A DNA stretch of 64,000 bases from the NCBI GenBank assembly GCA_964035545.1, contig OZ037768.1, positions 15,731,875 to 15,795,874 of the forward strand. The letters are read 5' to 3'. This stretch comes from Bugula neritina (Eukaryota; Animalia; Bryozoa). The notes beneath the pieces were generated by a model. It made no database searches. It was not told the DNA's origin and was given only the letters and a program-made list of their open reading frames with translations. The position numbers and the translations under genes are program-made. Every line of letters starts with the position of its first letter. The stretch's first letter is position 1. Shown piece by piece: positions 30,785-64,000 of this stretch.

Positions 30785-30831
<47 letters not shown>

Positions 30832-33800
30832 ACATATATATGTCACATATATATGTCACATATATATGTGACATATATATGTCATACATGTATCTCACTT
30901 TTGTATGCCATTTATGTATGTCACAATTCAATTTGCTTTAGGTTCAGAGAAAGAAGTATTTCAATATGGTGGAAGACATGAAAGGAAAGATCAGAGTGTA
31001 TTGTAGAGCAAGACCCATGAGCTCTAGTGAACTGCAACGAGTTTGTTTCTTGATTAGTTAATATATGTTGTCACTATGTAAGGTGTATGTTGAACTGTTT
31101 ACCTTGAGTTAGGCAATACATGTCATGCAATAATGTTTGTTTATGTAAACTGAAATTCGAATATTTGGTCTAAGTACGATAATTATTAAAGTTCTGTTGC
31201 TCGTAGGGAAACTTCTCCGTTCTCAAGTCACCGGATGAATATTCCCTAAATGTAGATACAACTCGTGGTCTCAAGGAGTTCAACTTCGACCGGGTTTTCA
31301 TGCCCGAAAATACTCAAGAACAGGTTTTTGAAGACACATATGTAAGTCGCTGTTGTCATTTTATACTGTTTTTGACAAGGGTACCATTGCCACCTCTGCA
31401 AGTGGTAGGCGCATAATATTATTGCTACAATACATAGTTATAGAATATACTAGTTATATGACATACTAATTTACCCAAAGTTCACACTGAGTACAACTAG
31501 TGTTGTTGAAATACGTGCAGATGTAAACTTAGTGTGTGCCTCTGTTAGTTACCTTGGCTAGTATGTATGCTGGATACACTTATTGGTATGCTGAGATTTG
31601 CAGCTGGTATTACATAACCTTGCAGCATCTAGTACAGTCAGCAGTTGATGGATATAATGTCTGTATCTTTGCCTATGGCCAAACTGGATCCGGCAAAACA
31701 TTCACCATGATCGGTGACCAAAGTAACAATCACCCTGGCATTGCCCCGAGAGCTTTTAAGAGAATCTTTGAAGTCATTGATGAAAATAAGTGAGTGCATT
31801 TCTTGAGGCTTTTCTATAATGTTTAACTGTTGACTATTTTTGCATGTTTTCTTGGAGGCATTTAATATCAGTTTTTATTTGGGATACTACCAACATTTAT
31901 CTTTGGCTCAGCTTGCTATGTATTGTTATACTCAGCTTGTGAACTGATGGAGTGTGTACATTGAACTTTGCATAAATAGAGATTGCATACAGTTGGCTGT
32001 GTATATCCCTATGAACCACTATTTTGAACACTATGTAATGATCTCAGCTCAACAACTATTCTGCCCCAAATAGTTTATATAAATGTAATATCACTGGAAG
32101 CTTACTATGTTATAAAATACAAGTACATTGTACAAGTTTATAGTTTACTGCTGCTGCTGTAGGTCATTATCAGTATTATCATTGATAATGTACAGTCACA
32201 GTTCAAAATAAATGTTTATGTTAGATCACTTTATAGTACAGCACTTCTAGTAAATTAATCTACAATATAACATGGCGACATGTTACATTGTAGGGAAAAG
32301 TTTGATTTTAAAGTCACTTCGTACATGGTGGAGCTTTACAATGACAAGCTGCTAGATTTGTATGCCGGAAAGGACAGTGTTGCTGATGTGAGTCTGTATT
32401 AAAATTTAAGTCAAGTAAACAGATTATATAAAATATATTGAAATGGAGAATTATAAATTTTGTATACATATATTGAATATATTTTCTGTCTTCTCTATTT
32501 TCAATTATCTGGCATGTGTATTTCTTGTTTCAAGTCTTGAGTGTAAATAATTCAAGTTATATTGTTCATTCTTTATTTCCTTTTTGTTGTGCATTTTAAT
32601 TAACAATTTATATTCTAATATTTAGCCTTCAACAAAATCTGTGGGTATATTACAGTATTTCTATGTCTACTGTAAAAGTAGTATTTGTTTAGTATAAATT
32701 GTTGACTTTAGACCAAAAATTATTTATTAAAATTCACTGGATTATTCAATATAATCTAGAAAATGTGGATCACCTGAAAGATGTAGGTTAAAGTGTATAG
32801 ACTTTATAGAGAAAAGCAGCTATAAATTTATAGATTGGAAAGTTGAGATTCTGAACTTTAGTGTATAGATTAGAGTTATTGGAATAGCTATAGAGTAGCA
32901 GGTTGTAGAACATGGAAAATATAACAAACCAAAACTTAGGTACTTATAAACTTTATGTTGATGACTATGAGACAAAGACTACTGCAGTAAGCACTTGGCA
33001 GAGTATAGACTTTGAAACTTAGATCATCGAGTATAGAATGGGAAATATAGACTGCAAGTAGACTTCATCTATAATGAAGTATTAGACAAATAAATATAAG
33101 CATGTGTTTCAACTTTCAGAATAAGTGTAGTGTACTATAAATTATAGATCATATTAGAAATAATCTGGCGTGAGCTATATGTATGACTTTCACTCTACTA
33201 GTAGCAGGCACTCAGTCTCAAACTATTTTGATATATCTATATTATTGACTTATGTGATAATTTTAATAACTGTATGAAAAGTTACTGAAAAATGTTCTGG
33301 TTTCTGACTCATTTTTTAAAATTCTAGATGTTTTATTGCTTAACACTTTAGCTGCTGCTAAGTTCTTTTTGAGTGTTAATTTGTCAGTTAGAATAAACTT
33401 GCCAAAAGGAAAAAAGGTTATTAATGCATCGCTTCAAATTGTAAATGAGTAAAATATGTTTGTATTGAAAAACTACTAGTTAGCATGTTACATATATTAC
33501 ACATTCTGCGTGCTAGTATGTTGATTACATGTGTGTGAGTGTAGGATTAGTGTTGATCACTGTAGTGTAATATAGTTTGTTCCATCTCTATGTCCAGCAT
33601 TGCGTACTAACTCTACAGATTGTGGTGTGATTATAAAATGAGTGTCACCTATTCTTGTCACACCCTGGGTGTCATTATAAATTATACTTTTTGGGTTTTT
33701 GCACAATACCAACTGAAAGGAATTATTTCTAATGTACTTATTTTAAAACATTGCCATTTCATTCCAGTACATTAAAATCTTCAACAGCAAGTCTGGGTAT

Positions 33801-48100: not shown

Positions 48101-51100
48101 GATTTCTACTGTAAAGGTGATTTTCTTCTATGGTAGTAATATCAAGCACTGTATCACAAAATTGTAGAAGTATAGTAATCTAGTAAAGGCAAAAGTTGGC
48201 ATCCATTTTCCCATACTATCTCATAAATGTGATTATTATAAGATATTGAATTACTATTCAATAATTTCATGTATGAGTTAATCAAATTTCCCCTTCAGTT
48301 TGGTGTGAATGTGGCTGGTAGGTAATAAACTTAAATATTTTGGTTTATAATCTTCATAATTTTTTCTACGTTTCTAATGCAGACAAAAAACTTGATTCAA
48401 TTACAATGTCAATTATGAATATGTTATAGCTTATACTTTCTTATCTCTATCTACAGTGAGTTAGACACACAATATATCAGACATATGATATACCCTAAAC
48501 TAATTTATTGGGCCAGGGTAGAAGAGGATCACTTTCAATCGTGGAATTCAAAGAATGCTGATCAGAGTGGCAGAAAATGTTATTTATCTTACCAACTGAT
48601 TAAACTCTTGTTTAAGGGTGATCAGTGCTGCACACAGCACCTCACTTATATGTATCAAACTGGTTCTCGCTTTTTCACTGTTGCATGCATTACATTGCTC
48701 CCTGCTTCCTGCAGGTCAAGCTGGGACAGGCAAGAAAGAAGAAGTGGCTGAGCTGTCCCTCAACCCAGATGAGAACTTCTGTATGGGTGGTCCTGGTGTG
48801 GTGGTGACTGGGGAGACATTGAGGAGGGTAATCCCCCACATCAGTTACTGTCTGCAGCATCTCCTCTCCACACACGAGGACATCGAACTTGGCAGATGCA
48901 TCAGAATGTTTGCAGGAATCCCTTGCACTTGGAATTATGAGGTAAACTCTATAACTTACTAGTTTGTGCTTTATGTCCGACTTTATCACATTTTGTTAAA
49001 AATATTTCGGCCTTCACACATGCTATCTTGTGCAATACTGGCTCAGTTCAATTTAGAAATTGTCATCTCATTATTTTGGGTAATTTTCAACTATTTTTTC
49101 TATTATACTGTTTGTGTTTACCAAAACTTACTAGCAGGGGAAGGGTTGGTTTGCAAACAGCTATTGATCAGTTTTATAGCTCAAATTGCTTTCTGCTGCA
49201 TCTATCCAGTTATATGGTTCATCAAGTTTGATGTTTCAAAACCTCTACACCCCATTGTCTTGTGGTGTTTTATAGCCTTAGCTATTTACAGGGCACATTG
49301 TGAATATAATTGTGTAGAATCCTGCAGGTATTTCATTTCCAGCATTCTGTAATTTAATAGTAATTCTGCTGTAATAAAATATAACTTGGGCTGCTAAAAC
49401 TTGACCATATGCAGTGTTCTTTGAGATACCTGTTTTCGAATGTAAATTAAGTTACTAACTATAGAAATATTCAATGTAAATGCTCTTACTTTTCACTATG
49501 AAGAGCTTTTCTTTCACTGGCTATCAAACATAAAATTTCACACACATATCCAAATTGATTCAGTCGCATTTTCATGCTGCTAAATATTTGGTGTGAAATA
49601 ATTGCCACTTCAACTGTGAAATGGTATACAAGGAAGAAGTTACTTAGGATAATAGCCAATGTGATGAAATTTGCCTAAAGGACTGAAATTTATAATTATA
49701 TTGGAAATTATAAAAAATTATGCTACAACGAGTGACTGCTATTCAACATGTAGGCTTTATAAAAATATTAACAATATAAAGCGTGGAATTGAAATATAGG
49801 TTAATATACCAACTCCTATTACTGCTAGAGTTTTTGTTGGTAATATTCATATTTATGTACCCATGTCAAACTGTAAAGAGCTTTTTATGTTTTTATAAAC
49901 AACATTGGTTGAGATATATACTCCTAAATGTTTTACAATGTATTTATATCACGTATAATATTGAGATATTACCTCATCATTTGTACCATTTGTGGAAAAA
50001 AGTAAACAACAATACATACACACAGAGATTATTTCCAACTTGTACAGCAGTTGTATATACACTATATATTGCCCACAATGACTGTACAATATTTTGTAAA
50101 ACAATCAGTTTGTAACAACATTTGTTGTGTTCAGATGCAGGTGCTGTTTTATCACAGTTATACGCATGCTACAAACTCCCATGTCTTTCCACATGATCTC
50201 ACAGGACCTGAATTAGACCGAGCTATAACACTGCATCCCATTAAAGTGCCCTCAGTGATGTACCACGTAAGCCAGTATATCCTATGTCTTTTCTGCTTAT
50301 AGTGCTTTTGGTGAATCACAAATATAGACCCAAGCTAGTGTTGAAATGAACATATTTTTGATAGACATCATAATTTGAAATAATGTGGATATAGAAACAA
50401 CAAAAGCTTGCTATCACTCGACTGTTGAAGTAACGAAGTTAACTTTACTGATGTGTAGCCTGTGAATAGACCAACTAGGCCCCTCCAGTGTAAACAGGCT
50501 AACTAGACCCCCCCCCCCCCTTCTCTTCTTCAAACAGGCTAACCTGACTTGGTAAATGTAAAAATAAATAAATAAGTTTGTGCTATGCTATGTTTAAAAC
50601 AGCAAATATCTTGTTTGCTTTTATAATGTATTATATACAAGTTATTATTAACCTTTAGGTTCACAATGAAATTCTGATAAGAAAAAGAGCCAAGTTAGAG
50701 CTACAGAAGATTGAGTTAAAAAGAGAAATAACAGAACTGGATACTTTCCTTGGTAATCAATGTTTTTATTTACTTGCCCTAACTATAGATGTATTTCAAC
50801 ATTGATTTCATTTTAACTTGTGTGGAAATTGGTTATACACATAACCTGGCTAACATCAACATTGACTTCAACTGTAACCCCCTATTCACACTTACCGTAT
50901 CGTACACCGTAACAGCAAATATCAGCCATTTTTACAAACTCCTATTTGACAGAAAAACTTTTGCGTTAATTCATTGGATATAATTGTCCAATGAAGTGTC
51001 ATAGATCGTACCTAATAGCGGACTTTGAAAACTTCAGCCCGGGCACATTAAAAATGGCTGATATTTGCTGTTACGGCGTACAATACGGTAAGTGTGAATA

Positions 51101-52445
51101 GGGGGTTAAGCATGTTGTATATTCACAGAAAAAAAGAGAAAACTCTATTTGTTTTCAAGTTATAAACAAATTTGTGATTTATGATACCTTTGGTTAATAT
51201 CGGCACATTTCAAAGTTTACTATTCATTTATTGCTTTCTGCTAATCAGTGTTGGTGGAATAATTTCCCGTTAACAGACTCACCAAAAGAAGGCTTAGACA
51301 AAGTGCAAGCATCTGTGGAACCGAGTGACTTTGACTTCTTGCCATGGGTTTTCATCACAAGCAAGAGCCAAATAGCCCACAACATGTTTAGTGTCAAGAG
51401 AAACCATGAAAGATCATGGAAGCAGGTTTTAGACAGAGCTTTAGACTTGGCAGTTAACCAGCTGAATGAAAATGCCATGTCTGATGGAAGACTACTAGAT
51501 CAGCCTGAAATAGTATACGGTTATCGGAGGTTTCATCCACTCAGTGGCATTCAACTCAAGTTAAATGTAAAGTTTCGCTGCTTGAAATTTCATGGAAAAT
51601 CTTCTAAATCGTACATATCAAAATATATAGAGCTGGGAGCCCATCTAAGCTCCCCTGAAATTAGAAAAGTCGCTTTGAAAAGTAATGACATTGTCCACCT
51701 AATCTTACCATTGAGTGGGAAATTAAAAGAGTTTAAAAGATTTCTTTCCCAGTTTGAAGAAGTTTGTAAAAGCAAGGACTCTTGTGTGTTATTACTGGTT
51801 TTATACAAGAGTTCATCGTACCTTGAAACTATCACCAGCGTCAGTCAAAGCTTGTTAAAACACAAGATACGAATTTTGCGAGTTCACGGGACCTTTAACA
51901 GAGCTGTTGCTCTGCATAATGGTGTCATGGCTGTTGATGACACTGAGCTGGTGATGTTTGTTGATGTTGACATACATCTCAATGTTGCCGCTCTTCTCAG
52001 AGTCAAGGCAAATACTAGACTCAGATCTCAGGCTTATTTTCCTATCGTTTTCAATCAATACGACAGCAAGCTTACATGTGGAGCTAACTCCTGTCCTGTA
52101 GATAACCAGACCCCTGAAGATGGTAATTTCAGGTTCTTTGGGTTTGGTATAGCATCTATGTATAAAGCTGATTATGTGTCAAGTGGCGGGTTTGATTTAA
52201 ACATACGGGGCTGGGGCAAGGAAGATGTGGACTTGTACAGTAAAATGTTGAAGACGAATACAACTGTATTCAGAGCTGCTGACCCTGGGATAGTACATAT
52301 CTATCATCCTAAAATATGTGACTCAACTCTCAATGCTGAGCAAACAGTCATGTGTGTAAATAGTAAGGCAGCATCATTTGCATCTCAGCATAAACTAGCT
52401 CAACTTTATTTCAACTCTAGACACAAAAGCAACTTGACGCTATAG
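42192..52445 (+). CDS. CHSY1: Chondroitin sulfate synthase 1-like glycosyltransferase (~719 aa, 8 coding exons)
   Basis: Exons 42192-42398 (type II anchor ALTGLAGGILCGFILCLW; in-frame upstream ATG at 42102), 43613-43737 (IGVMTA..VWQTWAK), 45622-45716 (YPPQKKSFMM), 47365-47475 (FMRVDDDVY), 48715-48941 (FCMGGPG..THEDIELGRC), 50135-50266, 50659-50752, 51277-52445 (FVDVD, YFPIVF, GGFDLNIRGWGKEDVDLY). All phases join. Paralog assignment (CHSY1 vs CHSY3) is nominal for an invertebrate. Confidence 0.93.
44909..45598. mobile_element. piggyBac-type MITE
   Basis: TTAA on both sides (44905-08, 45599-602); TIRs CCCTTACGCGATCAA / TTGATCGCCAAAGGG (13/15); subterminal direct repeat GATCAATGGACCATATATG x2. 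Confidence 0.85.
47089..47153. repeat. 28-bp tandem duplication
   Basis: TATATCAGATAGGTTTCCATGTAGCTAC x2 plus a partial copy. Confidence 0.8.
50876..51107. mobile_element. ~230-bp MITE with ~60-bp TIRs (Harbinger-like termini)
   Basis: CCCCCTATTCACACTTACCGTATCGTACACCGTAACAGCAAATATCAGCCATTTTTA is mirrored with ~2 mismatches at ~51049-51105; TAA/TTA flanks (TSD ambiguous). Confidence 0.85.
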
Positions 52446-54340: not shown

Positions 54341-54655
54341 AAAAGAAAGCTCTACTTAGAATTACACAGTTCAAACCCATTCATTAAGAACAGTGATGTC
54401 ATAAAATGATGAACTGCACACATAAAGTCAAGAATTAATTGGGCAAACACACATATGAGCGGGAAATTTGCTGAATAATTCATTATTCTATTTTATAGTT
54501 TCAATAATGCGGGTTTATTTCATCATGTATTTTTACTGCTCAATGATAGATTCTGCAAATAGTATTTAAATTCTATAGCACTATAAATGAGGAATACAAA
54601 TTCACAAAACTTGAATTGATATAAAATAGTGCTTTAACATTATAGAATTAAATAT

Positions 54656-55066
54656 TGTAGTGAATTTTGCCAGTTCACTATTATTATTTGTGGGTCTACT
54701 TAATCAAAGCCACTGCGACAGGTTGTTTACGATAAGATACTTTTATTATTTACACAAATACAAGAAGGTTATTTACTGCTAGCATGAATAGAAAACGATT
54801 ACATAATTAGTGAGCTTCAATACACAACTGTTCTAAAAGAAGTCCCAAGCTGCTCTGCCGGTTAGCTACTCAGCGCACTGCAACTACGAGTAGCTAGCTC
54901 CACCTGCTATCAATTAGTGTCACTGTCCTGATTGGTGGCTACTAATGGTGCCACTACTGTCCATAGTTACACTCCGACAGTGTCGAACTCACAAGATACA
55001 TAAAACAGTATAGAGTAAACCTTTTCGATTAATCTAATAGGAATTGCACTACTAAAATCTATCACA
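54656..55066 (-). repeat. Putative 3' LTR of element B (~411 bp)
   Basis: On minus strand: TG start after a polypurine tract, CCAAT (~54931), AATAAA (~54742), CA end at 54656, flanked by ATAT. Boundaries cannot be confirmed without the partner LTR. Confidence 0.55.
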
Positions 55067-55190
55067 CTCTCCTCGCCTATCGAAAAGTACTCTCTAGACT
55101 TAATATTTACATGACAGTAACACACGAATAATAATGAGGGTAACATAGTGCTTTACAAAACTGAGGGTACAATTGAACAAGAGAAAATAT

Positions 55191-55497
55191 TGTGGTGGTT
55201 CGTGGAACTACCAGCAGCACAACATGTAGGGTCGCGTAATTGACCCGGAACAATGGATAGCCAATTAGCGTAGTTGATAGTTAGCAGCAATTGTAGTTTC
55301 CCGCTGCTAACTCAGTCGAAGCTAGAGTGTGAAATAGATTAGATGTGTAACTTGTTTGGAAATAATGTATCGTGTTTTTATAATGTATAGTTGTGTATAA
55401 AATATACTCGTTCACTCGACTTATCCTGGTGCAGCTCTATAGTAGATAAATAGACTCTCTGGATAGCACATCAACCCTAAATCTGAAAATCTTAACA
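55191..55497 (+). repeat. 5' LTR of element A
   Basis: TGTGGTGG...CTTAACA; direct repeat of 62392-62698. Confidence 0.97.
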
Positions 55498-55498
55498 G

Positions 55499-55516
55499 TG
55501 GTGGCAGCGGTGGGAT
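55499..55516 (+). other. Primer-binding site, tRNA-Leu
   Basis: TGGTGGCAGCGGTGGGAT, 1 nt after the LTR, complementary to the 3' 18 nt of animal tRNA-Leu(AAG/TAG-type) ...AUCCCACCGCUGCCACCA. Confidence 0.9.
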
Positions 55517-55528
55517 AGTGCATCCAAG

Positions 55529-56482
55529 ATGGAGACTGAAAATGCTGGAACTCAACCACCGGCAATCGAAGGTGAGCGTAGAGACAATGCTGTAGAGACA
55601 ATGCCTGTTAACCATGTAGTAGAAGAGCGAAGGGTTCCGCGAGAACTAGCTGAAGACCGCTACAGGTTAAAGGCGCCCACCTTCACGGGTGAAGAGGAGG
55701 TGGAACAATTTATCCAAGAGTTTAGCGACGTAATGGACGTCGCTCAGTGGCCCCCTAGGGTGGCCCTGCTGAAGCTTAGAATGGCATTGATGGACAAAGC
55801 CAAGCCCTATGGGCTGGGCGCAGACATTGATAATATCTTTGCTTCTCTGCGGGCCCGCTTTGGCCTCTCTGCTACAGATGCCAGGGCCCGATTGCAGAGG
55901 TTGCGGCGTGATCCCCGCACCCCGCTGCGGGAGCATGCCGCCGCGGTCATGAAGCTGGCACAGATCGCGTACAGCGACTTGCCCCCAGTCAACCGCGAGA
56001 GGTACACCCTCGACGCTTTCATAGCATCTGTCGACGATCTGGGTCTCCACCACCAGTTTCTAGCTAGGGGAGTCACCACCGTTGAAGATGCTCTGACTGA
56101 GGGGGAAGCTTACCTCCTAGCTAATCAAATGCATAAAAGTCGCGGAAGCTCCCGCCAAGTGGAGATAGACCGCGCAGACACGGCCGCGGGACAAGGGGAA
56201 GAAACCCCCGCCGCGGCTGCCGTGTCCCAGTTGGCGACGGCATCAAAAGTCACTCAACTGACGGACATGCTAGCCAAGCTGATAGCAACACTGACACCAC
56301 AAAACCCAGTGAGTACCGCCCCTGAGCCCATGCGGCCATCGGCGCCGCCACAGGGAGAAACAGTCAGTTTTTGCTGGGAGTGCGGAAATCAAGGACATTT
56401 CCGCCGATATTGTCCCTTCCTAAATCAGGGGTTAAACTACCGCGGCCCGCAGATGTTCCCACCTTCCGCGGGCCGACGATGA
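55529..56482 (+). CDS. gag: Gag (capsid + CCHC nucleocapsid knuckle), 317 aa
   Basis: ATG just after the PBS; PTFTG..F..F....W capsid-type motif; CWECGNQGHFRRYC zinc knuckle. Confidence 0.93.
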   Translation: METENAGTQPPAIEGERRDNAVETMPVNHVVEERRVPRELAEDRYRLKAPTFTGEEEVEQFIQEFSDVMDVAQWPPRVALLKLRMALMDKAKPYGLGADIDNIFASLRARFGLSATDARARLQRLRRDPRTPLREHAAAVMKLAQIAYSDLPPVNRERYTLDAFIASVDDLGLHHQFLARGVTTVEDALTEGEAYLLANQMHKSRGSSRQVEIDRADTAAGQGEETPAAAAVSQLATASKVTQLTDMLAKLIATLTPQNPVSTAPEPMRPSAPPQGETVSFCWECGNQGHFRRYCPFLNQGLNYRGPQMFPPSAGRR

Positions 56483-59400
56483 AACCTCTAGGGAAGAAGA
56501 AACGCAGGTCACCCAGACGGGTACCGCGTACTGGCAACCAACAGTGGCAACAGCCACGACGGACCAGCAAGGGGCTTCGCCCCGCGGCTGCCTTTTCTAT
56601 GCCCCTTCACAACAGATTCACAGGGCTACAAGTCCAAGAATCTGGATGGGAGCACACAAAGGTAGCTGAGAATCTAGCCTCGGCACCCCCGAGGCCTACC
56701 TATCACCGCCCCAAGAGACCTCCTTCGCGACCCAAAGCGAGGGAGGTACTCCCTGCGAGAGTAAGGCCTGAAGGGAGAGTTCAGGTGCAGCCCCATGAGA
56801 ACAGCTATTTCTTGCCCGGTAAACTGGAAGGCAAAGCTGTTACTTTTCTCATTGATTCGGGCTGTACCACAAACCTCTTAAGCCGCCAACTCTTCGACAC
56901 CCTCAGCGCTAGGGTCAGGGGCGAGATGGAAGCATACGAAGGGGAATACGGCACCCTAGCTGACGGGTCGTGCCTTCCCTTCTATGGTATAATTGAGCTG
57001 ACGGGACGAGTCCGCGATCAAACGATCCAAGAGACATTCATCGTCAGTCAGCTCAAGGAGGATGCTATCCTCGGGATGCCGTTCCTTAAACGGCACGGAT
57101 GTCACATAGATTTTAGCAGATCTGCAATGATGATGTCCGGGCGAGAACTCGCCTGCGTCGACAAGTTCGGCCGCCCTTTAGTGGGAGGTGTGCAAGTGGT
57201 ACGCAACCGTACCATACCAGGCCGCTCCCGGGCTACCATTCACTGCAGGGTGAATAGTAGCCGGATCTCTGGACTCGGGGTGGTTGAAGGCGCGCACGAA
57301 AAGATCCAACTTGCCAGCAGTCTGAATCAGCTGACTGAGCAAGGGGAGATCTTAGTGCAGTGCGTCAACCCCTTTACCGAGCCTATCAAGCTCCCGGCTG
57401 GGTCGATGCTGGGCCGTTTTCACTCTGTTCAGGAGGGAGACGTAGGCCCGTCGCTGGGTGATGCGACAGAGGCACTCCCTCGACACCCTATTCAGGGACG
57501 AGGGGCAGTCCCAACACATCTCCGGGAGTTATATGAAACAGCCAGTGGCGGCTGCGCGAGTAACCGGGAACGCCAAGCTATGGCTAAGTTACTACGCGAC
57601 TACGGTGATGTGTTCAGCAGCGGGGAGCATGACGTGGGACTGACTGGAATTGTCAGACACGAAATACCGCTGACTGCAGGGACAGTCCCTGTCCGGCAGC
57701 CCACCCGCAGGCTGGGGCCGGAGAAAGAGAAGGAGGTTAGCCGACAAGTACGGGATCTTCTGGACCGGGGACTGATAGAGCCCGCCCATAGTGCGTGGAG
57801 CTCGCCAGTCGTACTGGTCCGGAAGAAAGACGGCAGTTGGCGGTTCTGTGTGGACTACCGCAAACTCAATAGCGTAACCATACAGGACGCCTACCCTCTA
57901 CCTCGTATTGACGAGTCATTGGACGCCCTAGCCGGCAGCAAGTACTTCAGTACGTTAGACTTGCTAAGCGGCTATTGGCAAGTTCCTCTGAGTCCCGACG
58001 CCCAGGAGAAAGCGGCGTTTATCACACGGGACGGTTTGTGGAAGTGGAAGGTGCTGCCCTTCGGGTTAACCTCCGCCCCAGCCACCTTCCAGAGGCTGAT
58101 GGAACAAGTCCTTAGCGGACTCCATTGGAAGACACTGCTGGTCTACCTCGATGATGTCATCGTAATCTCTCCAGACTTCGAGACACATGTCAGTCGTCTG
58201 CAGGAGGTTTTCGAGAGACTCCGAGGTGCCGGTCTTAAGCTCAAACCTTCCAAGTGCGCTCTATTGCAGCCGGAGGTCAAGTACCTGGGGCACGTTGTCG
58301 GTCGAAACGGCGTGGCAACGGATCCCGAAAAGGTACGGGCGGTAGAAGACTGGGTCACCCCCCAAGACTTGACCGAACTCCGGGCTTTCTTGGGGCTGGT
58401 AGGGTATTACAGGCAATACATACCAGACTTTGCGGGCATAGCCCAGCCGTTAAACCGGCTCACCGCAAAGGGAGTGACGTGGCAGTGGACTCCAGTCGAA
58501 CAAGAAGCGTTCGACCGCCTCAAGGGCTGCCTACTAACGGCGCCCATCTTGGCCTACCCAGACCCCACTCTGGAGTACATCCTTGACACGGACGCCAGTG
58601 ACCAGAATGTTGGCGCTGTGCTGTCACAAGTGCAGGAAGGCCAAGAGGTAGTAGTAGCCTACTACAGCAAGTCTCTCTCACCCGCTGAACGAAATTACTG
58701 CACTACCCGCAAGGAGCTGCTGGCAGTAATCAAGTCAGTGAAGCACTTCAGACCATACCTATATGGCAGGAAGTTCCGGCTGCGTACGGATCATGCCTCG
58801 CTGATCTGGTTGTGCAGGAGAGCAGAGCCCTCTAGTCAGGTCGCTCGGTGGCTCGAAATCCTAGCTGAATTCTCGTACCGGATCGAACACCGACCGGGCA
58901 AGAGACACAGCAATGCGGATGGGTTGAGTCGCCGACCTGACGGAGGTTGCAAACAGTGTCTCAACATCGAGAGGAGGGATGGAGGTCCCCCACGATGCGA
59001 GTTGGAGACGCTGGCTCATCACGGAGCACCGTTTGATTGGGATCAAGGTCAACTCAGGCAAAGAGTTGATGAGTCCCCGGAGGATGTACAAAACCTCCGC
59101 GCCAACCCTGTACTGGCTGGTAATGTTCGAGAGCTGAAGAAGCTCCAAGAAGAGCTGCCTGGAGTCGTGGCAGACATATACCGGGCCAAAAGGGAAGGGC
59201 GACGACCCAGCGAGGAACGCATACGACAGGGATGCGCCGAGTTCCGGCTATACTGTCAGCGTTGGGACTCGCTGCGGATCGGGCAGGATGGGTTGCTAAC
59301 CATCTCTCTAGCTGCCAGCGGCAGACACCCGGAAAGGAAGAGGGTAGTCTGCCCCACAGCCATCCGCCGTGAGTTGATTTGGGATACTCACAAGCAGGCC

Positions 59401-61002
59401 CACGCAGGGGTCAAGCGAGTGATGTCCAAATTACGACTTCGGTGGTATTGGCCACAAATGGAGCGTGATGTCCGGCTCAGAGTCAAACAGTGTGAGATCT
59501 GCCAGGCCAGTAAGCATAGCCGCCCCCCTGGTGAAGCAGGACGGCGGAGGCTATACGCTGGTAGGCCCTGGCAAGTAGTCGCTGTAGACCTGGTCGGACC
59601 CATGCCCCTGACCCCCAGAGGCAATAATTGGATCCTAGTACTAACCGACCACTTTACTAGGTGGGCGGATGCTCTGGCTATCCCAGACGCATCAGCCCCA
59701 ACAGTGGCCAGGGCACTAGACCAACACGTATTCTGTTATTTTGGGCTCCCCGAACAGATACACTCTGATCAAGGCGCTCAATTCCAGTCTCAACTGATGA
59801 GCGACCTTTGCCGCCTCTGGGGAGTAAATCAGAGCAGGACCACCCCCTACCACCCTCAAGGTAACGGGGTGGTGGAGCGCAACAACCGGATGCTAGGTGA
59901 TGCACTCCGGAGTCTCCTCCTTGGACGAGGTCAAGAGGAATGGGATACGGTGTTGCCGCAAGTCATGCGTGCATACCGTAGCACCCCACACACCAGTACT
60001 GGTGAGACCCCAAACCTCTTGATGCTCGGGAGAGAGACTCGTGTCCCCGACCATCTCACCTATCACGTTCCAGAGCAAGATAACTCAGTCCACGAGTATG
60101 CCAGTGAACTAGTGGAACGGATGAAGGCCGCACACGAGATACTGCGCCAACAGCAGTGGAAGGTGCGGCACGAAGATTCCGATGAACCACCCCTCTATCA
60201 GAGGGGAGATAAGGTGTGGATGGTCAATTACCGTAGGCGCCGCGGACAGGCTGATAAGCTGAAGCCTAAGTTCGTAGGCCCCTACGTGGTTGTCGAGGCT
60301 ATGCCCAATCATACGTACAAGATTGAGCGCTCAGGACAGGTGTCTATCCAGAATGAGTCTCGCTTGAAACCGTATTGGGCTAGCCCCGGCGGAGTGGGAG
60401 AAGCCCCCCCGTTGTTAGAGCTCAGGAGGCAGACAACAACGCGCGGGCGACGGCGGCATGGACCTGAATACGAAGTGGTCATACCGCGGGAGGAAAACTT
60501 GGTGAGAGAGGAGCGGCAGCTTTTGTCAACAGAAGCGTGTCCGCCACCGCCAAGTCTAATTCCATCACTTCCAGAAACCGAGCCGGTTCCGGAAGTGCAA
60601 ACCCCCACGGAGGGAGGGGCTCCATCCGGAGAACAAGAAGAGGTGACTGCTGACGGTGAAGTAGAGACGCCATTAGAGGCCCCTACTAACGAACCGGCAA
60701 GCGTGTCACCCCCCCTAGAAAGGGGACAGCGTACGAGGCAACCCCCCGCATACTTGAAGGACTTCGTATGTGACTGCGTTAAAAGCGGCACGCATGGAAG
60801 TCTAGGGGAAAACCGTACGAGAAAAGAATCGAGCAAATGTGGGAGTTGTCAACACCACGGAAATATCAACTTTTGCATCGGCGGAAATAGAAATAAAATT
60901 CATCCGCCGGGTGCACAAAGTCTTAATCACGCACCCCAACCACGTTGCTCGATCTTTTCATACGCTGATGCAGTCAGGAGTAGACGTGTTTCTAAGCAGT
61001 AG
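56371..61002 (+). CDS. pol: Pol polyprotein (protease, RT, RNase H, integrase), -1 frame relative to gag
   Basis: FLIDSG protease; RFCVDYRKLN, LPFGL, YLDD RT; DTDAS..TDH..ADGLSR RNase H; H..H..CEIC, VAVD..HSDQG..VERNN integrase; KFVGPY GPY/F motif. The ORF-track start is not an ATG. Confidence 0.97.
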   Translation: MLGVRKSRTFPPILSLPKSGVKLPRPADVPTFRGPTMKPLGKKKRRSPRRVPRTGNQQWQQPRRTSKGLRPAAAFSMPLHNRFTGLQVQESGWEHTKVAENLASAPPRPTYHRPKRPPSRPKAREVLPARVRPEGRVQVQPHENSYFLPGKLEGKAVTFLIDSGCTTNLLSRQLFDTLSARVRGEMEAYEGEYGTLADGSCLPFYGIIELTGRVRDQTIQETFIVSQLKEDAILGMPFLKRHGCHIDFSRSAMMMSGRELACVDKFGRPLVGGVQVVRNRTIPGRSRATIHCRVNSSRISGLGVVEGAHEKIQLASSLNQLTEQGEILVQCVNPFTEPIKLPAGSMLGRFHSVQEGDVGPSLGDATEALPRHPIQGRGAVPTHLRELYETASGGCASNRERQAMAKLLRDYGDVFSSGEHDVGLTGIVRHEIPLTAGTVPVRQPTRRLGPEKEKEVSRQVRDLLDRGLIEPAHSAWSSPVVLVRKKDGSWRFCVDYRKLNSVTIQDAYPLPRIDESLDALAGSKYFSTLDLLSGYWQVPLSPDAQEKAAFITRDGLWKWKVLPFGLTSAPATFQRLMEQVLSGLHWKTLLVYLDDVIVISPDFETHVSRLQEVFERLRGAGLKLKPSKCALLQPEVKYLGHVVGRNGVATDPEKVRAVEDWVTPQDLTELRAFLGLVGYYRQYIPDFAGIAQPLNRLTAKGVTWQWTPVEQEAFDRLKGCLLTAPILAYPDPTLEYILDTDASDQNVGAVLSQVQEGQEVVVAYYSKSLSPAERNYCTTRKELLAVIKSVKHFRPYLYGRKFRLRTDHASLIWLCRRAEPSSQVARWLEILAEFSYRIEHRPGKRHSNADGLSRRPDGGCKQCLNIERRDGGPPRCELETLAHHGAPFDWDQGQLRQRVDESPEDVQNLRANPVLAGNVRELKKLQEELPGVVADIYRAKREGRRPSEERIRQGCAEFRLYCQRWDSLRIGQDGLLTISLAASGRHPERKRVVCPTAIRRELIWDTHKQAHAGVKRVMSKLRLRWYWPQMERDVRLRVKQCEICQASKHSRPPGEAGRRRLYAGRPWQVVAVDLVGPMPLTPRGNNWILVLTDHFTRWADALAIPDASAPTVARALDQHVFCYFGLPEQIHSDQGAQFQSQLMSDLCRLWGVNQSRTTPYHPQGNGVVERNNRMLGDALRSLLLGRGQEEWDTVLPQVMRAYRSTPHTSTGETPNLLMLGRETRVPDHLTYHVPEQDNSVHEYASELVERMKAAHEILRQQQWKVRHEDSDEPPLYQRGDKVWMVNYRRRRGQADKLKPKFVGPYVVVEAMPNHTYKIERSGQVSIQNESRLKPYWASPGGVGEAPPLLELRRQTTTRGRRRHGPEYEVVIPREENLVREERQLLSTEACPPPPSLIPSLPETEPVPEVQTPTEGGAPSGEQEEVTADGEVETPLEAPTNEPASVSPPLERGQRTRQPPAYLKDFVCDCVKSGTHGSLGENRTRKESSKCGSCQHHGNINFCIGGNRNKIHPPGAQSLNHAPQPRCSIFSYADAVRSRRVSKQ
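56431..56495 (+). other. Candidate -1 ribosomal frameshift signal
   Basis: G_TTA_AAC in the gag frame, 5-nt spacer, 8-bp all-GC stem 56443-50/56468-75; loop TTCCC can pair with GGGAA at 56491-95. Confidence 0.75.
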
Positions 61003-61026
61003 TTCAAACCATTTCACACATTCAGT

Positions 61027-62104
61027 ATGTCTTACGACAACAGATCGTGGGGTGAGTTAACTATATCTTAATACGAAACTAGATTGCATCGCTCAGCTCT
61101 GACTCACTGAGTCAATCGAGCTGGAGATAGGTTAGTGAAATACCGTAGTAAGAACTCAGTTTGACTTAGAGATTTTTATAATCTCATTGCAATACGTGTT
61201 CTATCTGACTATTCACTACCATAAATCTCTACGAGGTAACTGAATTAGGAGTTGCCAAGCTGTTCAAGCTGACAACACAGCAGTGTACTGTATTAACACT
61301 GTTGAAACTTTTTCAGATTACACTCGACCCGCTACAACCAGGGTACGGGATAGAACACTTCCCGCTCCGTATCCAGAGGAGTATGCTAGTGGTGACCGGC
61401 CTGAGCCACTACGCCGCCGTTGGCGGTGGGTGTCTCCACAAACAGAAGAAGAAATAGAAACAGCCTGGGGGTCCAGAGGATGGACGAGATGCCAGATCTG
61501 TGGTGAAGATTGCGCCTCTCACCGCTCCCTTAAACTACACGTCAATGCTCATCTCCTACTGACATTCTGCCCCTGCGGGTACAATGATGTGTATCCCTAC
61601 CCCATCACCAGACACAGAGCGGCGGGCTGTTTCCCTGGAGAAAACTACGTGGTCGACGCTAAGCTATACCCGGAGTTCCTCGCACTTATACGACCTCTGG
61701 TGAAGAAGGCCATGCTATTAGCCGTTCTGTCCTCGGGGTTCCAACGTGTGTTAGACAACGCCCGCCAACAATCCCCGTTGGTGTCTGACCGTCCTCAAAT
61801 TACATACACCCCCGAGGAAATTACAGATCCAGAAGAAGGAGAGATCTCCCCTACACCGGCGAAGAGACGAACCAGGTCCCCCAGTCCACCCTTGCGCCGC
61901 AGACGGACACCGTCCCCAGACCCAGTACGCCTGGCTACAGTAGAAGAACGCCTCCTACGATTACAAGAAGAGTTCACCCAGCTGGCACCAGATCTACTTA
62001 ACACTACCACAGGACTCTTCCAGCTAAAGGGATCCGTATGCCGTATGAAACGGAAACTGCGTACATGCCAAGCCAAGCACCGGCGTGCCCAACAAGGACT
62101 CTAG
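61027..62104 (+). CDS. Element A ORF3: predicted two-exon (61027-61051 + 61317-62104), 270-aa zinc-finger / Arg-Ser-Pro / coiled-coil protein
   Basis: ATG TCT ... TGG G|GTGAGT donor and TTTTTCAG|AT acceptor join in phase 1 (MSYDNRSW-D-YTRP...); CQIC-x12-H-x3-H then FCPCG..H..C; no signal peptide or TM segment. Confidence 0.8.
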
Positions 62105-62391
62105 TTAGACTACCCGGAGTACTCCAACTCCGCCTCTTGGGAGAAGCCCAGATGTCATGTAAATGTTTGACTGCTTAACAGGTTATCCCCTGTCTAACAC
62201 CACAGCTAGCTAGTATTCCTCGTCTATCTACAGCTGGCCAATTGTATGCAACGGATCGTTATAATGACTCTGTCTATTATTATGTCTCTTCCTGTATATT
62301 ATGTATTATTTTGTCCACTGATGTATGCAATTACTATTGAATGTTTTTTTATATATATATCAGAAAGATGGCTTTCTGCTGGTGGGGGCGG

Positions 62392-62698
62392 TGTGGTGGT
62401 TCGTGGAACTACCAGCAGCACAACATGTAGGGTCGCGTAATTGACCCGGAACAATGGATAGCCAATTAGCGTAGTTGATAGTTAGCAGCAATTGTAGTTT
62501 CCCGCTGCTAACTCAGTCGAAGCTAGAGTGTGAAATAGATTAGATGTGTAACTTGTTTGGAAATAATGTATCGTGTTGTTATAATGTATAGTTGTGTATA
62601 AAATATACTCGTTCACTCGACTTATCCTGGTGCAGTTCTATAGTAGATAAATAGACTCTCTGGATAGCACATCAACCCTAAATCTGAAAATCTTAACA
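62392..62698 (+). repeat. 3' LTR of element A
   Basis: 305/307 identical to the 5' LTR; preceded by GGTGGGGGCGG (imperfect PPT). Confidence 0.97.
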
Positions 62699-62821
62699 AT
62701 ATATATACAGAGTAGATAACATAAGTATAATAAATGAGTCTTCACGCCGTAGTCCATAACACTTATTTACACTGCTTGACTAGCCAGGAGGGGGGGGGTA
62801 CATGTGTAGGTGGCCGCACCT

Positions 62822-63986
62822 CTAGCACTTCTTCGCCAGCCGTTTCTCTAGTCGGGTCTGCAACTTAGCCAGCTCGGTGGTTGCTCGCTTCTGTTCTTTA
62901 CTGAGGCGAGCCATACGCCGTTGCACTTTCCTAATGTCGGCTAGTAGGGATTGGTCAGGGTCGCTGTCATCTCGGGGTGTGTTGGGGTACATAGGAGATT
63001 GTCGTCGTTGGGGGTTGTGAGTCCTTCGTCACAGCGCGTCCAGCACGGGTTACTACGACGCGTAGAGGTTGGGTGGTTACGTCTGGAGGGTAGGTAATCG
63101 TTGTTTCGGAGGGTTGGGGGTCTGCATCAGAGTCACTCTCTACTGTAGGTCGGGTAGCGGGGAAGTGGTCCAGGAGAGTCTGTCGTCGGTCCGGGTCAGT
63201 CACGTGGGGTAGTATTAGGTCCCGGAACTCCGTGTAAGAGTCTGCGTCGACTTCATACAAGTGCCCTACGTAACAGTCTCTAGTTCGTTGGTGTCTCAGT
63301 ATCGTGTCCCTGCAGAAGTGGTGAACTCCGCAGGGACAGAAAGTCACAGTAAAGTGTTGTGGAACGTGTATTCTCAGTCTCCTAGTAGTCGATAGTATTC
63401 TTCTACATTCAGTGCATTGTCTATTGTCGTCCGTCCCTACTATTGCTTCTATCAATGTTCGAGTCCGTCGAGTCGTCCAGTTAGTCCGTCCCAGTAAGGC
63501 TCTTGGTAGTGCTAGAGTAGTGTCCTTGGCTACAGTCAAGTCATCAGTCAAGTCGTTGGTATCAATTTGCATCGCAGTGTGTGTCGGGGAGTCCGTAAAT
63601 GTTGCTAAATGTATGTCGGACAGCATGTCTACCCCTGCTTCTGACATGCTGTCCCAGTTAGTCGTAGGTGTGTCAAGTAATGCCTGTATCTCGTCGGATA
63701 CAGGCTCAGTCTCACCTGCAATAGAGTATTTAAATTTAATTACACTCTATGCGTGGGACTCCCGTTCCAAACAATATTAAATAATCGAGTCTCACTGTCA
63801 CTCACTGATCGTGTAATCAGCTGAGTCGACTGTCCCACTCTAATTATCAATATCATTCGCTGTCAGGAGTTTCAACTTTATCATTATGACAAAGTGAGAC
63901 TGCTGTCGCTACCAGAATAAATTCTAATTAATTATTATAGAATTCCTAGTAGACTTACCCCCCAAAACAGTTGCTGCATTAGACAT
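62822..63986 (-). CDS. Element B ORF3 homologue, predicted two exons (63986-63959 + from 63715); main frame stops at 62967, coiled-coil tail continues in a shifted frame to 62822
   Basis: MSNAATVLG-G|GTAAGT ... TTGCAG|GT joins in phase 1; CTEC-x12-H-x3-H-x4-FCPCG..RH..C..Y.VDA..Y.EF..LI.P.V aligns with element A ORF3. Confidence 0.78.
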
Positions 63987-64000
63987 AATGATGCTGCTGC

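What the first reader, a model, noticed from the sequence alone, without database searches (positions are those of the whole stretch)
63716..63986. Same mini-exon plus ~250-nt phase-1 intron in both elements: a sense intron kept inside a retrotransposon
Seen: A has ATGTCT...TGGG|GTGAGT (25 nt, 61027-61051), a 265-nt intron and TTTTTCAG| at 61316; B has ATGTCT...GGGG|GTAAGT (28 nt, 63986-63959), a 243-nt intron and TTGCAG| at 63716. Both start Met-Ser, both are phase 1, both joins open the ORF3 frame; A's exon 2 has no ATG upstream of its zinc fingers. Both introns are AT-rich against GC-rich exons. Known: an efficiently spliced sense intron is lost when genomic RNA is reverse transcribed. Inference: persistence in two lineages means full-length RNA retains the intron while a separate mRNA splices it, which is the regulatory logic of complex retroviruses.
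Basis: partly seen in the sequence, partly recalled or inferred. Interest (0 to 1): 0.88.

Follow-up and report, generated by a model that had tools for sequence, protein, structure and literature searches.

The report
Retrotransposon third gene with retained intron
Two nested retrotransposons, likely from a bryozoan (moss animal), each carry an extra zinc-finger gene whose predicted start sits on a tiny exon ahead of a short intron predicted to fold; one related database protein joins the two exons exactly while the genomic copies seen keep the intron, so these elements likely splice out a separate message for what would be a regulator of their own full-length RNA, as complex retroviruses do.

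Summary
All coordinates check out. Element A (55191-62698, +) is a Ty3/gypsy LTR retrotransposon inserted into the 3' UTR of element B (-). Both carry a homologous post-pol ORF3 (zinc-finger domain, basic patch, coiled coil; not env). Its first Met lies in a 25/28-nt mini-exon before a phase-1 GT-AG intron. Best evidence: JGI protein P0062 (73% identical to B's ORF3) starts with B's mini-exon peptide joined to exon 2 in exactly the predicted register. In a DNA-like run, none of the 5 joints listed from 1,205 contigs removes either intron. Acceptor-side motifs hold across related proteins, and both introns fold and end in a hairpin just before the acceptor. No RNA read covers either junction. 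Intron retention in genomic RNA with a spliced 3' ORF is known (gypsy env, Cer1 CERV, Copia). A dedicated post-pol initiator exon, a short structured intron and this unnamed protein family were not found in my searches. New variant of a known kind; Rev/CERV-like role inferred.

The parts
55191..55497 (+). Element A 5' LTR (307 nt, TG...CA)
   Evidence: Direct repeat, 2 differences from the 3' LTR; ATAT target-site duplication at 55187-55190 and 62699-62702
55498..55516 (+). Primer-binding site of A; tRNA-Leu-like (identity recalled, not tested)
   Evidence: Sequence directly after the LTR
55529..56482 (+). gag of A, with a CCHC knuckle
   Evidence: ORF; zf-CCHC weak, E 0.15
55529..55577 (+). 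Alternative first coding exon of ORF3 (predicted): gag codons 1-14 + 1 nt, donor AAG|GTGAGC at 55571|55572, phase 1
   Evidence: Top-ranked of 433 GT sites in A; 43 nt, phase 1; P0025 has exactly 14 residues before the exon-2 anchor
56326..61002 (+). pol of A: protease, RT, RNase H, integrase, SH3-like
   Evidence: Pfam RVT_1 5e-37, RT_RNaseH_2 4e-36, rve 1e-15, in Ty3/gypsy order
61003..61026 (+). 24-nt spacer after the pol stop, ending in a candidate acceptor (CAG at 61025) just before the mini-exon ATG
   Evidence: Rank 13 of 589 AG sites on a crude score; use untested
61027..61051 (+). A mini-exon: 8 codons + 1 nt, with the only in-frame ATG between the pol stop and the zinc fingers
   Evidence: donor ranks 2 of 433; a 157-nt contig at high depth is identical over 61020-61176
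61052..61316 (+). A intron (265 nt, GT-AG, phase 1); predicted hairpins, a central rod and a 9-bp hairpin just before the acceptor
   Evidence: (z -3.1); acceptor-side read-through motif in relatives
61317..62104 (+). A ORF3 exon 2: C2H2-like finger plus CxC..H domain, Arg/Ser-Pro patch, C-terminal coiled coil
   Evidence: (pLDDT 88-98 over most of residues 51-180 and 231-286)
62376..62391 (+). Polypurine-tract-like segment of A
   Evidence: Sequence before the 3' LTR
62392..62698 (+). Element A 3' LTR
63959..63986 (-). B mini-exon: 9 codons + 1 nt
   Evidence: 8 of 9 residues identical at the N-terminus of P0062
63716..63958 (-). B intron (243 nt, GT-AG, phase 1); long predicted rod and a hairpin just before the acceptor
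   Evidence: (z -6.35 sense, -3.9 antisense); absent from P0062
62967..63715 (-). B ORF3 exon 2; this copy is broken near 62980 by a short deletion that shifts the frame before the coiled coil
   Evidence: 39% over 84 aa to A, E 8e-15; vs P0060; extra letters in other copies at 62984/62977
62703..62966 (-). B: out-of-frame coiled-coil tail and 3' UTR up to A's insertion site
55067..55186 (-). B 3' UTR continued on the other side of A, ending in a polypurine tract
54657..55066 (-). B 3' LTR (about 410 nt, TG...CA, followed by ATAT); inferred, since its partner LTR is outside the window

Best explanation
Two related Ty3/gypsy-type retrotransposons each carry a zinc-finger/coiled-coil ORF3 after a 243-265-nt GT-AG spacer that is cut out exactly in one B-type database record and is likely a spliceosomal intron in both, removed to make an ORF3 message but likely kept in the full-length RNA that is reverse transcribed. 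Steps. (1) Shown: the layout, the frames, the intron-less B-type junction, and the intron present in the DNA-like copies seen. (2) Inferred: splicing is inefficient on the full-length RNA; both introns are predicted to end in a hairpin that covers the branch/pyrimidine region, and in A the whole stretch from the gag donor to the ORF3 acceptor is predicted to be structured while exon 2, UTR and LTR are not. (3) Inferred: ORF3 can get its start from the post-pol mini-exon (B shown, A likely) or, in A-type elements, from the first 14 codons of gag. The mini-exon is used either as the first exon of an internally started RNA or as the middle exon of a doubly spliced RNA. (4) Most inferred, about 0.4 by itself: the protein is a nuclear, multimerising RNA-binding regulator that binds structured intron-side RNA and lets unspliced genomic RNA leave the nucleus, as Cer1 CERV and HIV Rev do.
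For: P0062 begins with B's mini-exon peptide (8 of 9 residues), then one residue, then the exon-2 peptide: same register as the window's prediction, though only 171 of 234 residues match elsewhere. Its contig is 1,546 nt against 1,571 nt from B's ATG to its LTR end. Run X2: 1,205 contigs laid on 60900-64000, 5 joints listed, 0 remove an intron; joints at depth 49-148 are visible while intron bins have depth 16,666-27,577 (A) and 3,737-5,425 (B). Read-through peptides: residue -1 is S or L in 26 of 27 anchored A-type proteins (79 examined) and V-Y lies exactly 11 codons before the acceptor in 9 of 10 long enough; the one exception each time is P0025. Residue -1 is A in 5 of 6 anchored B-type proteins (52 examined), the exception being P0062. 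Mini-exon donors rank 2 of 433 (A) and 2 of 59 (B part). Folding z -3.1 (A) and -6.35 (B), sense stronger than antisense; 0 of 6 A windows and 0 of 8 B windows wholly 3' of the acceptor reach z -3; host 2 of 30. Protein: C2H2-like finger, confident two-part model with a long C-terminal helix, basic runs. Precedent: CERV, from a spliced mRNA with a Cys finger, zipper and NLS, is required for genomic RNA export (PMC10309623).
Against: P0062 is one protein record; its DNA was not seen, and it could be a transcript or a reverse-transcribed DNA copy. Its C-terminus differs from its relatives as if frameshifted. No record shows A's mini-exon joined to exon 2; the one A-type record that looks joined (P0025) fits the gag donor, and its 14 residues match this gag start only weakly (rank 14 of 1,849 windows). 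22 of 26 scored A-type proteins, and B, have an in-frame Met in exon 2 before the fingers, so they would not strictly need a mini-exon. A's intron is not a folding peak: 15 of 27 gag-pol windows also reach z -3 (20 shuffles each). B has no canonical branch-point pentamer closer than -65. Only 29 of 55 family members have a strongly basic patch, and no clear export signal was found. C2H2 fingers usually bind DNA (established knowledge), which favours a transcription role. X2's kind is not on record, it may be the window's own sample, contigs drop rare variants and depth is not copy number. The related proteins are not independent.
Confidence: 0.6

Rival explanations
1. Same splicing, different job: ORF3 is a DNA-binding transcription regulator (Tas/Tax-like transactivator or anti-silencing factor) made early from an internal promoter near the pol end, and the short intron mainly boosts or gates that message.
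For: The best sequence and fold neighbours are DNA-binding C2H2 factors (all weak). P0062's contig length fits an RNA starting near the mini-exon. B's intron shares more 6-mers with B's own LTR than 298 of 300 shuffles and holds four GACAG; A's intron holds two TGA[C/G]TCA sites. Foamy viruses use an internal promoter for tas/bet (PMC12789967 passage).
Against: The 6-mer result is one of 14 tests and A's intron shows no such sharing with its LTR (135 of 300). There is only one canonical finger. Strand-biased folding of the introns is not needed for this model. No start-site data.
Confidence: 0.25
2. Ordinary env-type splicing: ORF3 is made only from the LTR-started RNA spliced from the gag donor to the ORF3 acceptor; the mini-exon is a minor or unused site, at least in A.
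For: The gag donor is the strongest GT site in A and is in phase. P0025 has 14 residues ending in E before the anchor, as the gag donor predicts. Idefix-subclade env is spliced to a Gag peptide (bioRxiv 2023.08.03.551782 passage); CERV shares gag exons.
Against: It cannot explain P0062, whose N-terminus is the post-pol mini-exon of B, not an open gag (the unspliced frame stops after 20 codons). Both elements keep an ATG-donor unit that shuffles give about 1% of the time each.
Confidence: 0.1
3. The AT-rich spacer is a promoter or leader for an unspliced ORF3 RNA that starts at exon-2 Mets, and the splice signals are incidental or chance.
For: 22 of 26 A-type proteins and B have exon-2 Mets before the fingers; no RNA junction was seen here.
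Against: The window's A subfamily (4 of 26) has no such Met; P0062 shows the exact junction; acceptor-side residues hold across diverged relatives.
Confidence: 0.05

Closest known systems
C. elegans Cer1 CERV (PMC10309623; abstract, Introduction, Background, sections 9 and 15 read)
   Same: [quoted passage not shown]
   Different: CERV is 517 aa from 5 exons, with a C4-type finger and a G-like domain, and is described as nematode-specific. No post-pol initiator mini-exon with a 250-nt intron appears in the parts read. ORF3 here is about 270-330 aa with a C2H2-like finger. Direct homology was not tested.
Drosophila errantivirus env splicing (bioRxiv 10.1101/2023.08.03.551782; passages read)
   Same: Third ORF lacks its own start and gets it from a tiny upstream exon (a short peptide, an AU, or a Gag peptide); A's gag donor is the same design.
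   Different: There the first exon lies at the 5' end and the product is a membrane fusion protein. Here the product has no envelope features and a second start exon sits just after the pol stop.
Complex-retrovirus regulators Tax/Rex, Tat/Rev, Rem and foamy Tas (PMC12789967; passages read)
   Same: Doubly spliced or internally started messages for nuclear regulators; structured response elements on unspliced RNA. The start-codon-bearing middle exon near the pol end in HTLV is recalled, not read.
   Different: Those are Retroviridae with env; there the second intron spans env, here it is about 250 nt with no ORF. No sequence or fold match to those proteins was found.
Ty1/Copia shGAG splicing, Arabidopsis EVD (PMC5580714; abstract read)
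   Same: A conserved sense intron is spliced from a subgenomic RNA and kept in full-length RNA.
   Different: The intron is at gag/protease and yields Gag; no accessory gene.
Plant additional ORFs: Bagy2, Grande gene23 (PMC7264820; passages read)
   Same: Extra 3' ORF, spliced (Bagy2) or nuclear with its own promoter (Grande); a Tat/Rev-like role has been suggested.
   Different: Bagy2's ORF is env-like and Grande's is antisense; the text has 0 occurrences of 'intron' or 'zinc'.

Membership tests
Ty3/gypsy LTR retrotransposon (element A) | Two LTRs (TG...CA), target-site duplication, PBS, PPT | tested here: met
Ty3/gypsy LTR retrotransposon (element A) | pol order protease-RT-RNase H-integrase | tested here: met
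Ty3/gypsy LTR retrotransposon (element A) | RT-based clade placement (Mag, Osvaldo, errantivirus, other) | not tested
Ty3/gypsy LTR retrotransposon (element B) | gag-pol upstream of ORF3 and a second LTR | not testable with these tools
   The window ends 14 nt before B's ATG and no genome is held; sense orientation rests on the PPT and LTR end and on homology to A's ORF3
Spliceosomal (U2) intron | GT...AG with strong donor and frame-restoring phase | tested here: met
Spliceosomal (U2) intron | Exact exon-exon junction observed | tested here: inconclusive
   Seen at protein level for a B-type record (P0062); not seen for A's mini-exon; no RNA contig covers either junction
Spliceosomal (U2) intron | Branch point 18-40 nt before the acceptor | tested here: inconclusive
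   A has a YTRAY pentamer at -24; B's nearest is at -65
Envelope-type ORF3 (errantivirus env-F, env-like aORF) | Signal peptide and transmembrane anchor | tested here: not met
   Best 19-residue hydropathy 1.64 in P0001 (inside the folded domain), 0.74-0.96 in three relatives; N-termini are polar
Rev/Rex/CERV-like export regulator | Encoded by a spliced message | tested here: inconclusive
   One intron-less record per family type (P0062; P0025 by inference); no RNA reads
Rev/Rex/CERV-like export regulator | Basic nuclear/RNA-binding motif and multimerisation surface | tested here: inconclusive
   RRRR and KKKR runs, 29 of 55 members with 6 or more K/R in 12 residues; long helix matching generic coiled coils; self-association not modelled
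Rev/Rex/CERV-like export regulator | Structured response element on unspliced RNA only | tested here: inconclusive
   Introns fold and the exon-2 side does not, but A's gag-pol folds as well, so no single element stands out; no Rfam match; no covariation data
Rev/Rex/CERV-like export regulator | Needed for export of unspliced RNA | not testable with these tools
   Needs cells
Complex retrovirus (Retroviridae) | env gene | tested here: not met

The most novel reading that the evidence does not exclude
A lineage of env-less invertebrate Ty3/gypsy elements has independently reached the full complex-retrovirus design: a dedicated start-codon mini-exon after pol, a 250-nt folded intron that is at once a splicing brake and the response element, alternative first exons, and an unnamed zinc-finger/coiled-coil regulator that switches the element from spliced regulator RNA to unspliced genomic RNA. 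The same domain also occurs in bryozoan gene models, once in duplicate, perhaps as a tamed host control.
Probability: 0.3. Interest if true: 0.8.

Novelty: new variant of a known kind. Interest (0 to 1): 0.58.

Why it matters
How LTR retrotransposons get unspliced genomic RNA out of the nucleus while keeping usable splice sites is largely open; in the papers I read, Cer1 CERV is the only element-encoded export factor shown in a retrotransposon. These elements give a compact, testable second case: a 250-nt intron with a predicted hairpin over its acceptor, kept in two diverged families, next to a protein family with no Pfam or PDB name. If ORF3 acts on that intron, Rev-like control arose again outside retroviruses and nematodes, with a different fold. 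If it is a transactivator instead, it is still a new accessory-gene family, and the mini-exon means it is mis-started by ORF-based annotation.

Tried and rejected
No genome is held for the window, so copies could not be surveyed at DNA level. Scans for related loci found none: viral contigs, 4 scans; metagenome contigs with the mixed ORF3 alignment, 0 of 64 pattern hits; genome contigs, 2 of 35 hits, both short bacterial chance matches. A metagenome scan with the integrase gave 2 loci of 39 hits; neither shows the ORF3 domain (L003 has only 754 nt after the match, L004 ends in it). RNA run X1: 22 short contigs at depth about 2-7 over 55498-64000 and 4 over 60900-64000, none across either junction; it may hold DNA, so it says nothing either way. 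In one search, 82 joints were not shown, so a gag-donor joint in X2 could not be checked. Fold searches gave no match at E 0.001 in PDB or viral libraries; the wide search was filled by generic coiled coils (Z up to 6.6) and barely tested the finger domain. The Atlas gave only generic C2H2 neighbours for a stored homologue. No Rfam match in 54500-64000. Self-association was not modelled. Intron-intron and intron-LTR alignments were at chance level. Earlier-findings look-ups gave nothing on this locus and one unrelated fungal LTR-intron note. Rejected: that B's ORF3 is antisense (the G-run at 62790 on + is not B's PPT; B continues on the minus strand left of A to a PPT and an LTR end); that B's mini-exon is a gag start (frame closes after 20 codons); that ORF3 is an envelope. 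Literature: 10 searches listed no paper on this ORF3 or layout; subscription journals and Repbase reports are outside the library, and no supplements were read.

Full report
Setting. The last 9.3 kb of the window hold two nested LTR elements. Element A runs 55191-62698 on the + strand: 307-nt LTRs with 2 differences, an ATAT target duplication, a primer site, gag (55529-56482), pol in the order protease-RT-RNase H-integrase (56326-61002) and a third ORF ending at 62104. A sits in the 3' UTR of element B, which is on the minus strand: B's ORF3 lies right of A, and B continues left of A to a polypurine tract and an LTR-like end at about 54657. So B's ORF3 is sense to B. B's gag-pol is outside the window and no genome is held. 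The only named relatives of ORF3 are bryozoan proteins (Watersipora subatra; Bugula neritina, 57% over part of the query), so the host is likely a bryozoan (inference).

Observation. Every coordinate in the finding is right. Phase 1 is the only long open frame behind each acceptor. On a donor matrix built from recalled frequencies, the mini-exon donors rank 2 of 433 GT sites in A and 2 of 59 in the B stretch. An ATG-open-frame-donor unit that strong arises in 37 of 3000 (A) and 25 of 3000 (B) shuffles of the spacer. The two ORF3 proteins are homologous (39% over 84 aa, E 8e-15), but the introns do not align beyond chance (69 of 300 shuffles). The shared thing is the layout.

Is the intron spliced? 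The homologue search with B's ORF3 gave 37 proteins. One of them, P0062, starts MSNAATVLESETE: 8 of the 9 mini-exon residues, one junction residue, then the exon-2 peptide, in the register the window predicts. It matches B's ORF3 at 171 of 234 residues, so it is a diverged relative that keeps the mini-exon peptide. Gene callers used on such contigs do not splice (established knowledge), so its contig likely lacks the intron. That contig is 1,546 nt; B's ATG to LTR end is 1,571 nt, which fits a message starting near the mini-exon. I could not see the DNA, so it may be a transcript or a reverse-transcribed copy; either needs a splicing event. Other relatives read through from the intron. Of 52 B-type proteins, 6 reach the acceptor; 5 have A before the anchor, as GCAG|GT gives, and the sixth is P0062 (one of the 5 is the window's own and two share a cluster). 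Of 79 A-type proteins, 27 reach the anchor; 26 have S or L before it, and 9 of the 10 long enough have V-Y exactly 11 codons upstream, 3 of them starting at that V, which implies a GTG codon. That is the 5' arm of the hairpin described below, held in place across diverged relatives.

Is it kept in the DNA? Run X2 (kind not on record; DNA by my inference; possibly the window's own sample) laid 1,205 contigs on 60900-64000. All 5 listed joints are elsewhere or partial; none removes either intron. Joints at depth 49-148 are visible, against intron depths of 16,666-27,577 (A) and 3,737-5,425 (B), similar to exon depths. A 157-nt contig at depth 10,417 is identical over A's mini-exon, donor and intron start. 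Contigs drop rare variants and depth is not copy number, so this shows that intron-keeping copies dominate, not that intron-less ones are absent.

The strongest donor in A is not the mini-exon's. It is AAG|GTGAGC at 55571|55572, 43 nt (14 codons + 1) after the gag ATG, also phase 1 for the ORF3 acceptor. The one A-type protein that departs from the read-through pattern, P0025, has exactly 14 residues ending in E before the anchor. Its match to this gag start is weak (rank 14 of 1,849 windows) and its contig is 5,320 nt, so this is inference. It suggests the familiar gag-leader-to-ORF3 splice also exists. A candidate acceptor lies one base before the mini-exon ATG (rank 13 of 589), so the mini-exon may be a middle exon of a doubly spliced RNA. 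For A, then, the mini-exon junction is likely but not shown; for B it is supported. Against a strict need for it, 22 of 26 scored A-type proteins and B have a Met in exon 2 before the fingers; the window's A subfamily (4 of 26) has none.

RNA structure. Both introns fold better than shuffles (A z -3.1, B z -6.35; antisense -1.7 and -3.9), and both end in a hairpin directly before the acceptor, with AGTGTA at -35 (A) and -31 (B) in its 5' arm. Windows wholly 3' of the acceptor do not fold (0 of 6 in A, 0 of 8 in B reach z -3; host 2 of 30). But 15 of 27 gag-pol windows of A also reach z -3, so the intron is the end of a long structured region, not a lone element. No Rfam family matches and no covariation could be tested.

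The protein. A family profile finds C2H2 fingers (8 of 55 members match zf-C2H2_4; best PDB sequence E 3e-6). The model has a disordered N-terminus, a confident domain at about residues 51-180, a low-confidence Arg/Ser-Pro linker and a 59-residue C-terminal helix (mean pLDDT 78). No fold match passes E 0.001 and the helix matches generic coiled coils. There is no envelope signature. A library-wide search gave 99 representatives at E 0.001 or better; of 10 distant ones looked up, 2 were named as W. subatra proteins.

Mechanism. Shown: layout, frames, an intron-less B-type junction, intron present in the DNA-like copies. Inferred: a hairpin-weakened acceptor lets full-length RNA escape splicing, and only that RNA founds complete copies. 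Most inferred: ORF3 is a nuclear multimeric RNA-binding factor that helps unspliced RNA out, like CERV (about 0.4); the main rival is a DNA-binding transactivator from an internal promoter (about 0.25).

Comparison. Cer1 CERV is a spliced, gag-sharing, post-pol protein needed for genomic RNA export (PMC10309623; abstract, Introduction, Background, sections 9 and 15). Errantivirus env takes its start from a tiny 5' exon or a Gag peptide (bioRxiv 10.1101/2023.08.03.551782, passages). Copia elements splice a conserved intron from a subgenomic RNA (PMC5580714, abstract). Tax, Rex, Rev and Rem come from doubly spliced RNAs and foamy Tas from an internal promoter (PMC12789967, passages). Plant extra ORFs are reviewed in PMC7264820 (passages); PMC8220671 (passages) added nothing on this layout. 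So intron retention itself is ordinary. A dedicated post-pol start exon with a short folded intron and this protein family did not appear in 10 searches; subscription journals, Repbase and supplements were not seen.

Verdict. Observation confirmed; interpretation partly supported. It works like the spliced-regulator design of Cer1 and complex retroviruses; it is a Ty3/gypsy element, not a retrovirus, and ORF3 is not env. New variant of a known kind; interest 0.58.

Noticed in passing
window 55591-61440 (+): Predicted RNA structure is strong along the whole gag-pol region (15 of 27 windows z <= -3) and falls to background in ORF3 exon 2, 3' UTR and LTRs (0 of 6); the boundaries match the gag donor and the ORF3 acceptor.
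   Followed up: partly
window 63716-63710 (-): B's acceptor is directly followed by a strong donor consensus (CAG|GTGAGA, the best GT site in the B stretch), a recursive-splice-like arrangement.
   Followed up: no
window 55187-55190, 62699-62702, 54653-54656: A is nested in B's 3' UTR in the opposite orientation; A has an ATAT duplication and B's LTR end is also followed by ATAT, suggesting a shared target preference.
   Followed up: partly
P0103/P0194 (XP_067940964.1, XP_067940963.1) and P0149 (XP_067944745.1): Watersipora subatra gene models carry the ORF3 finger domain, P0103 in two copies plus a coiled coil: a possible domesticated host gene or a mis-annotated element.
   Followed up: no
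window 55517-56831: One X2 contig joins 55517 to 56831 with GT..AG ends (depth 112, short side 20 nt); a deletion or another spliced form.
   Followed up: no
window 63736-63866: Two X2 contigs skip 58 or 129 nt inside B's intron, starting in the acceptor hairpin region, so some copies have internally deleted introns.
   Followed up: no
window 51198-52445 (+): Large host exon of a chondroitin N-acetylgalactosaminyltransferase/synthase-family gene (Pfam CHGN, E 8e-91), ending about 2.2 kb before the nested elements.
   Followed up: no
window 50875-51108: 60-nt inverted repeat, 97% complementary, 114-nt spacer, just before that exon; MITE-like (z -8.5).
   Followed up: no
window 4111-7499, 24477-24916, 28470-28599, 30795-30937: Several minisatellite arrays (periods 28, 22, 55, 26, 13) in the host DNA.
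   Followed up: no
window 60309-60848 (-): 179-codon antisense ORF over the integrase C-terminus, no Pfam match; probably a shadow frame.
   Followed up: no
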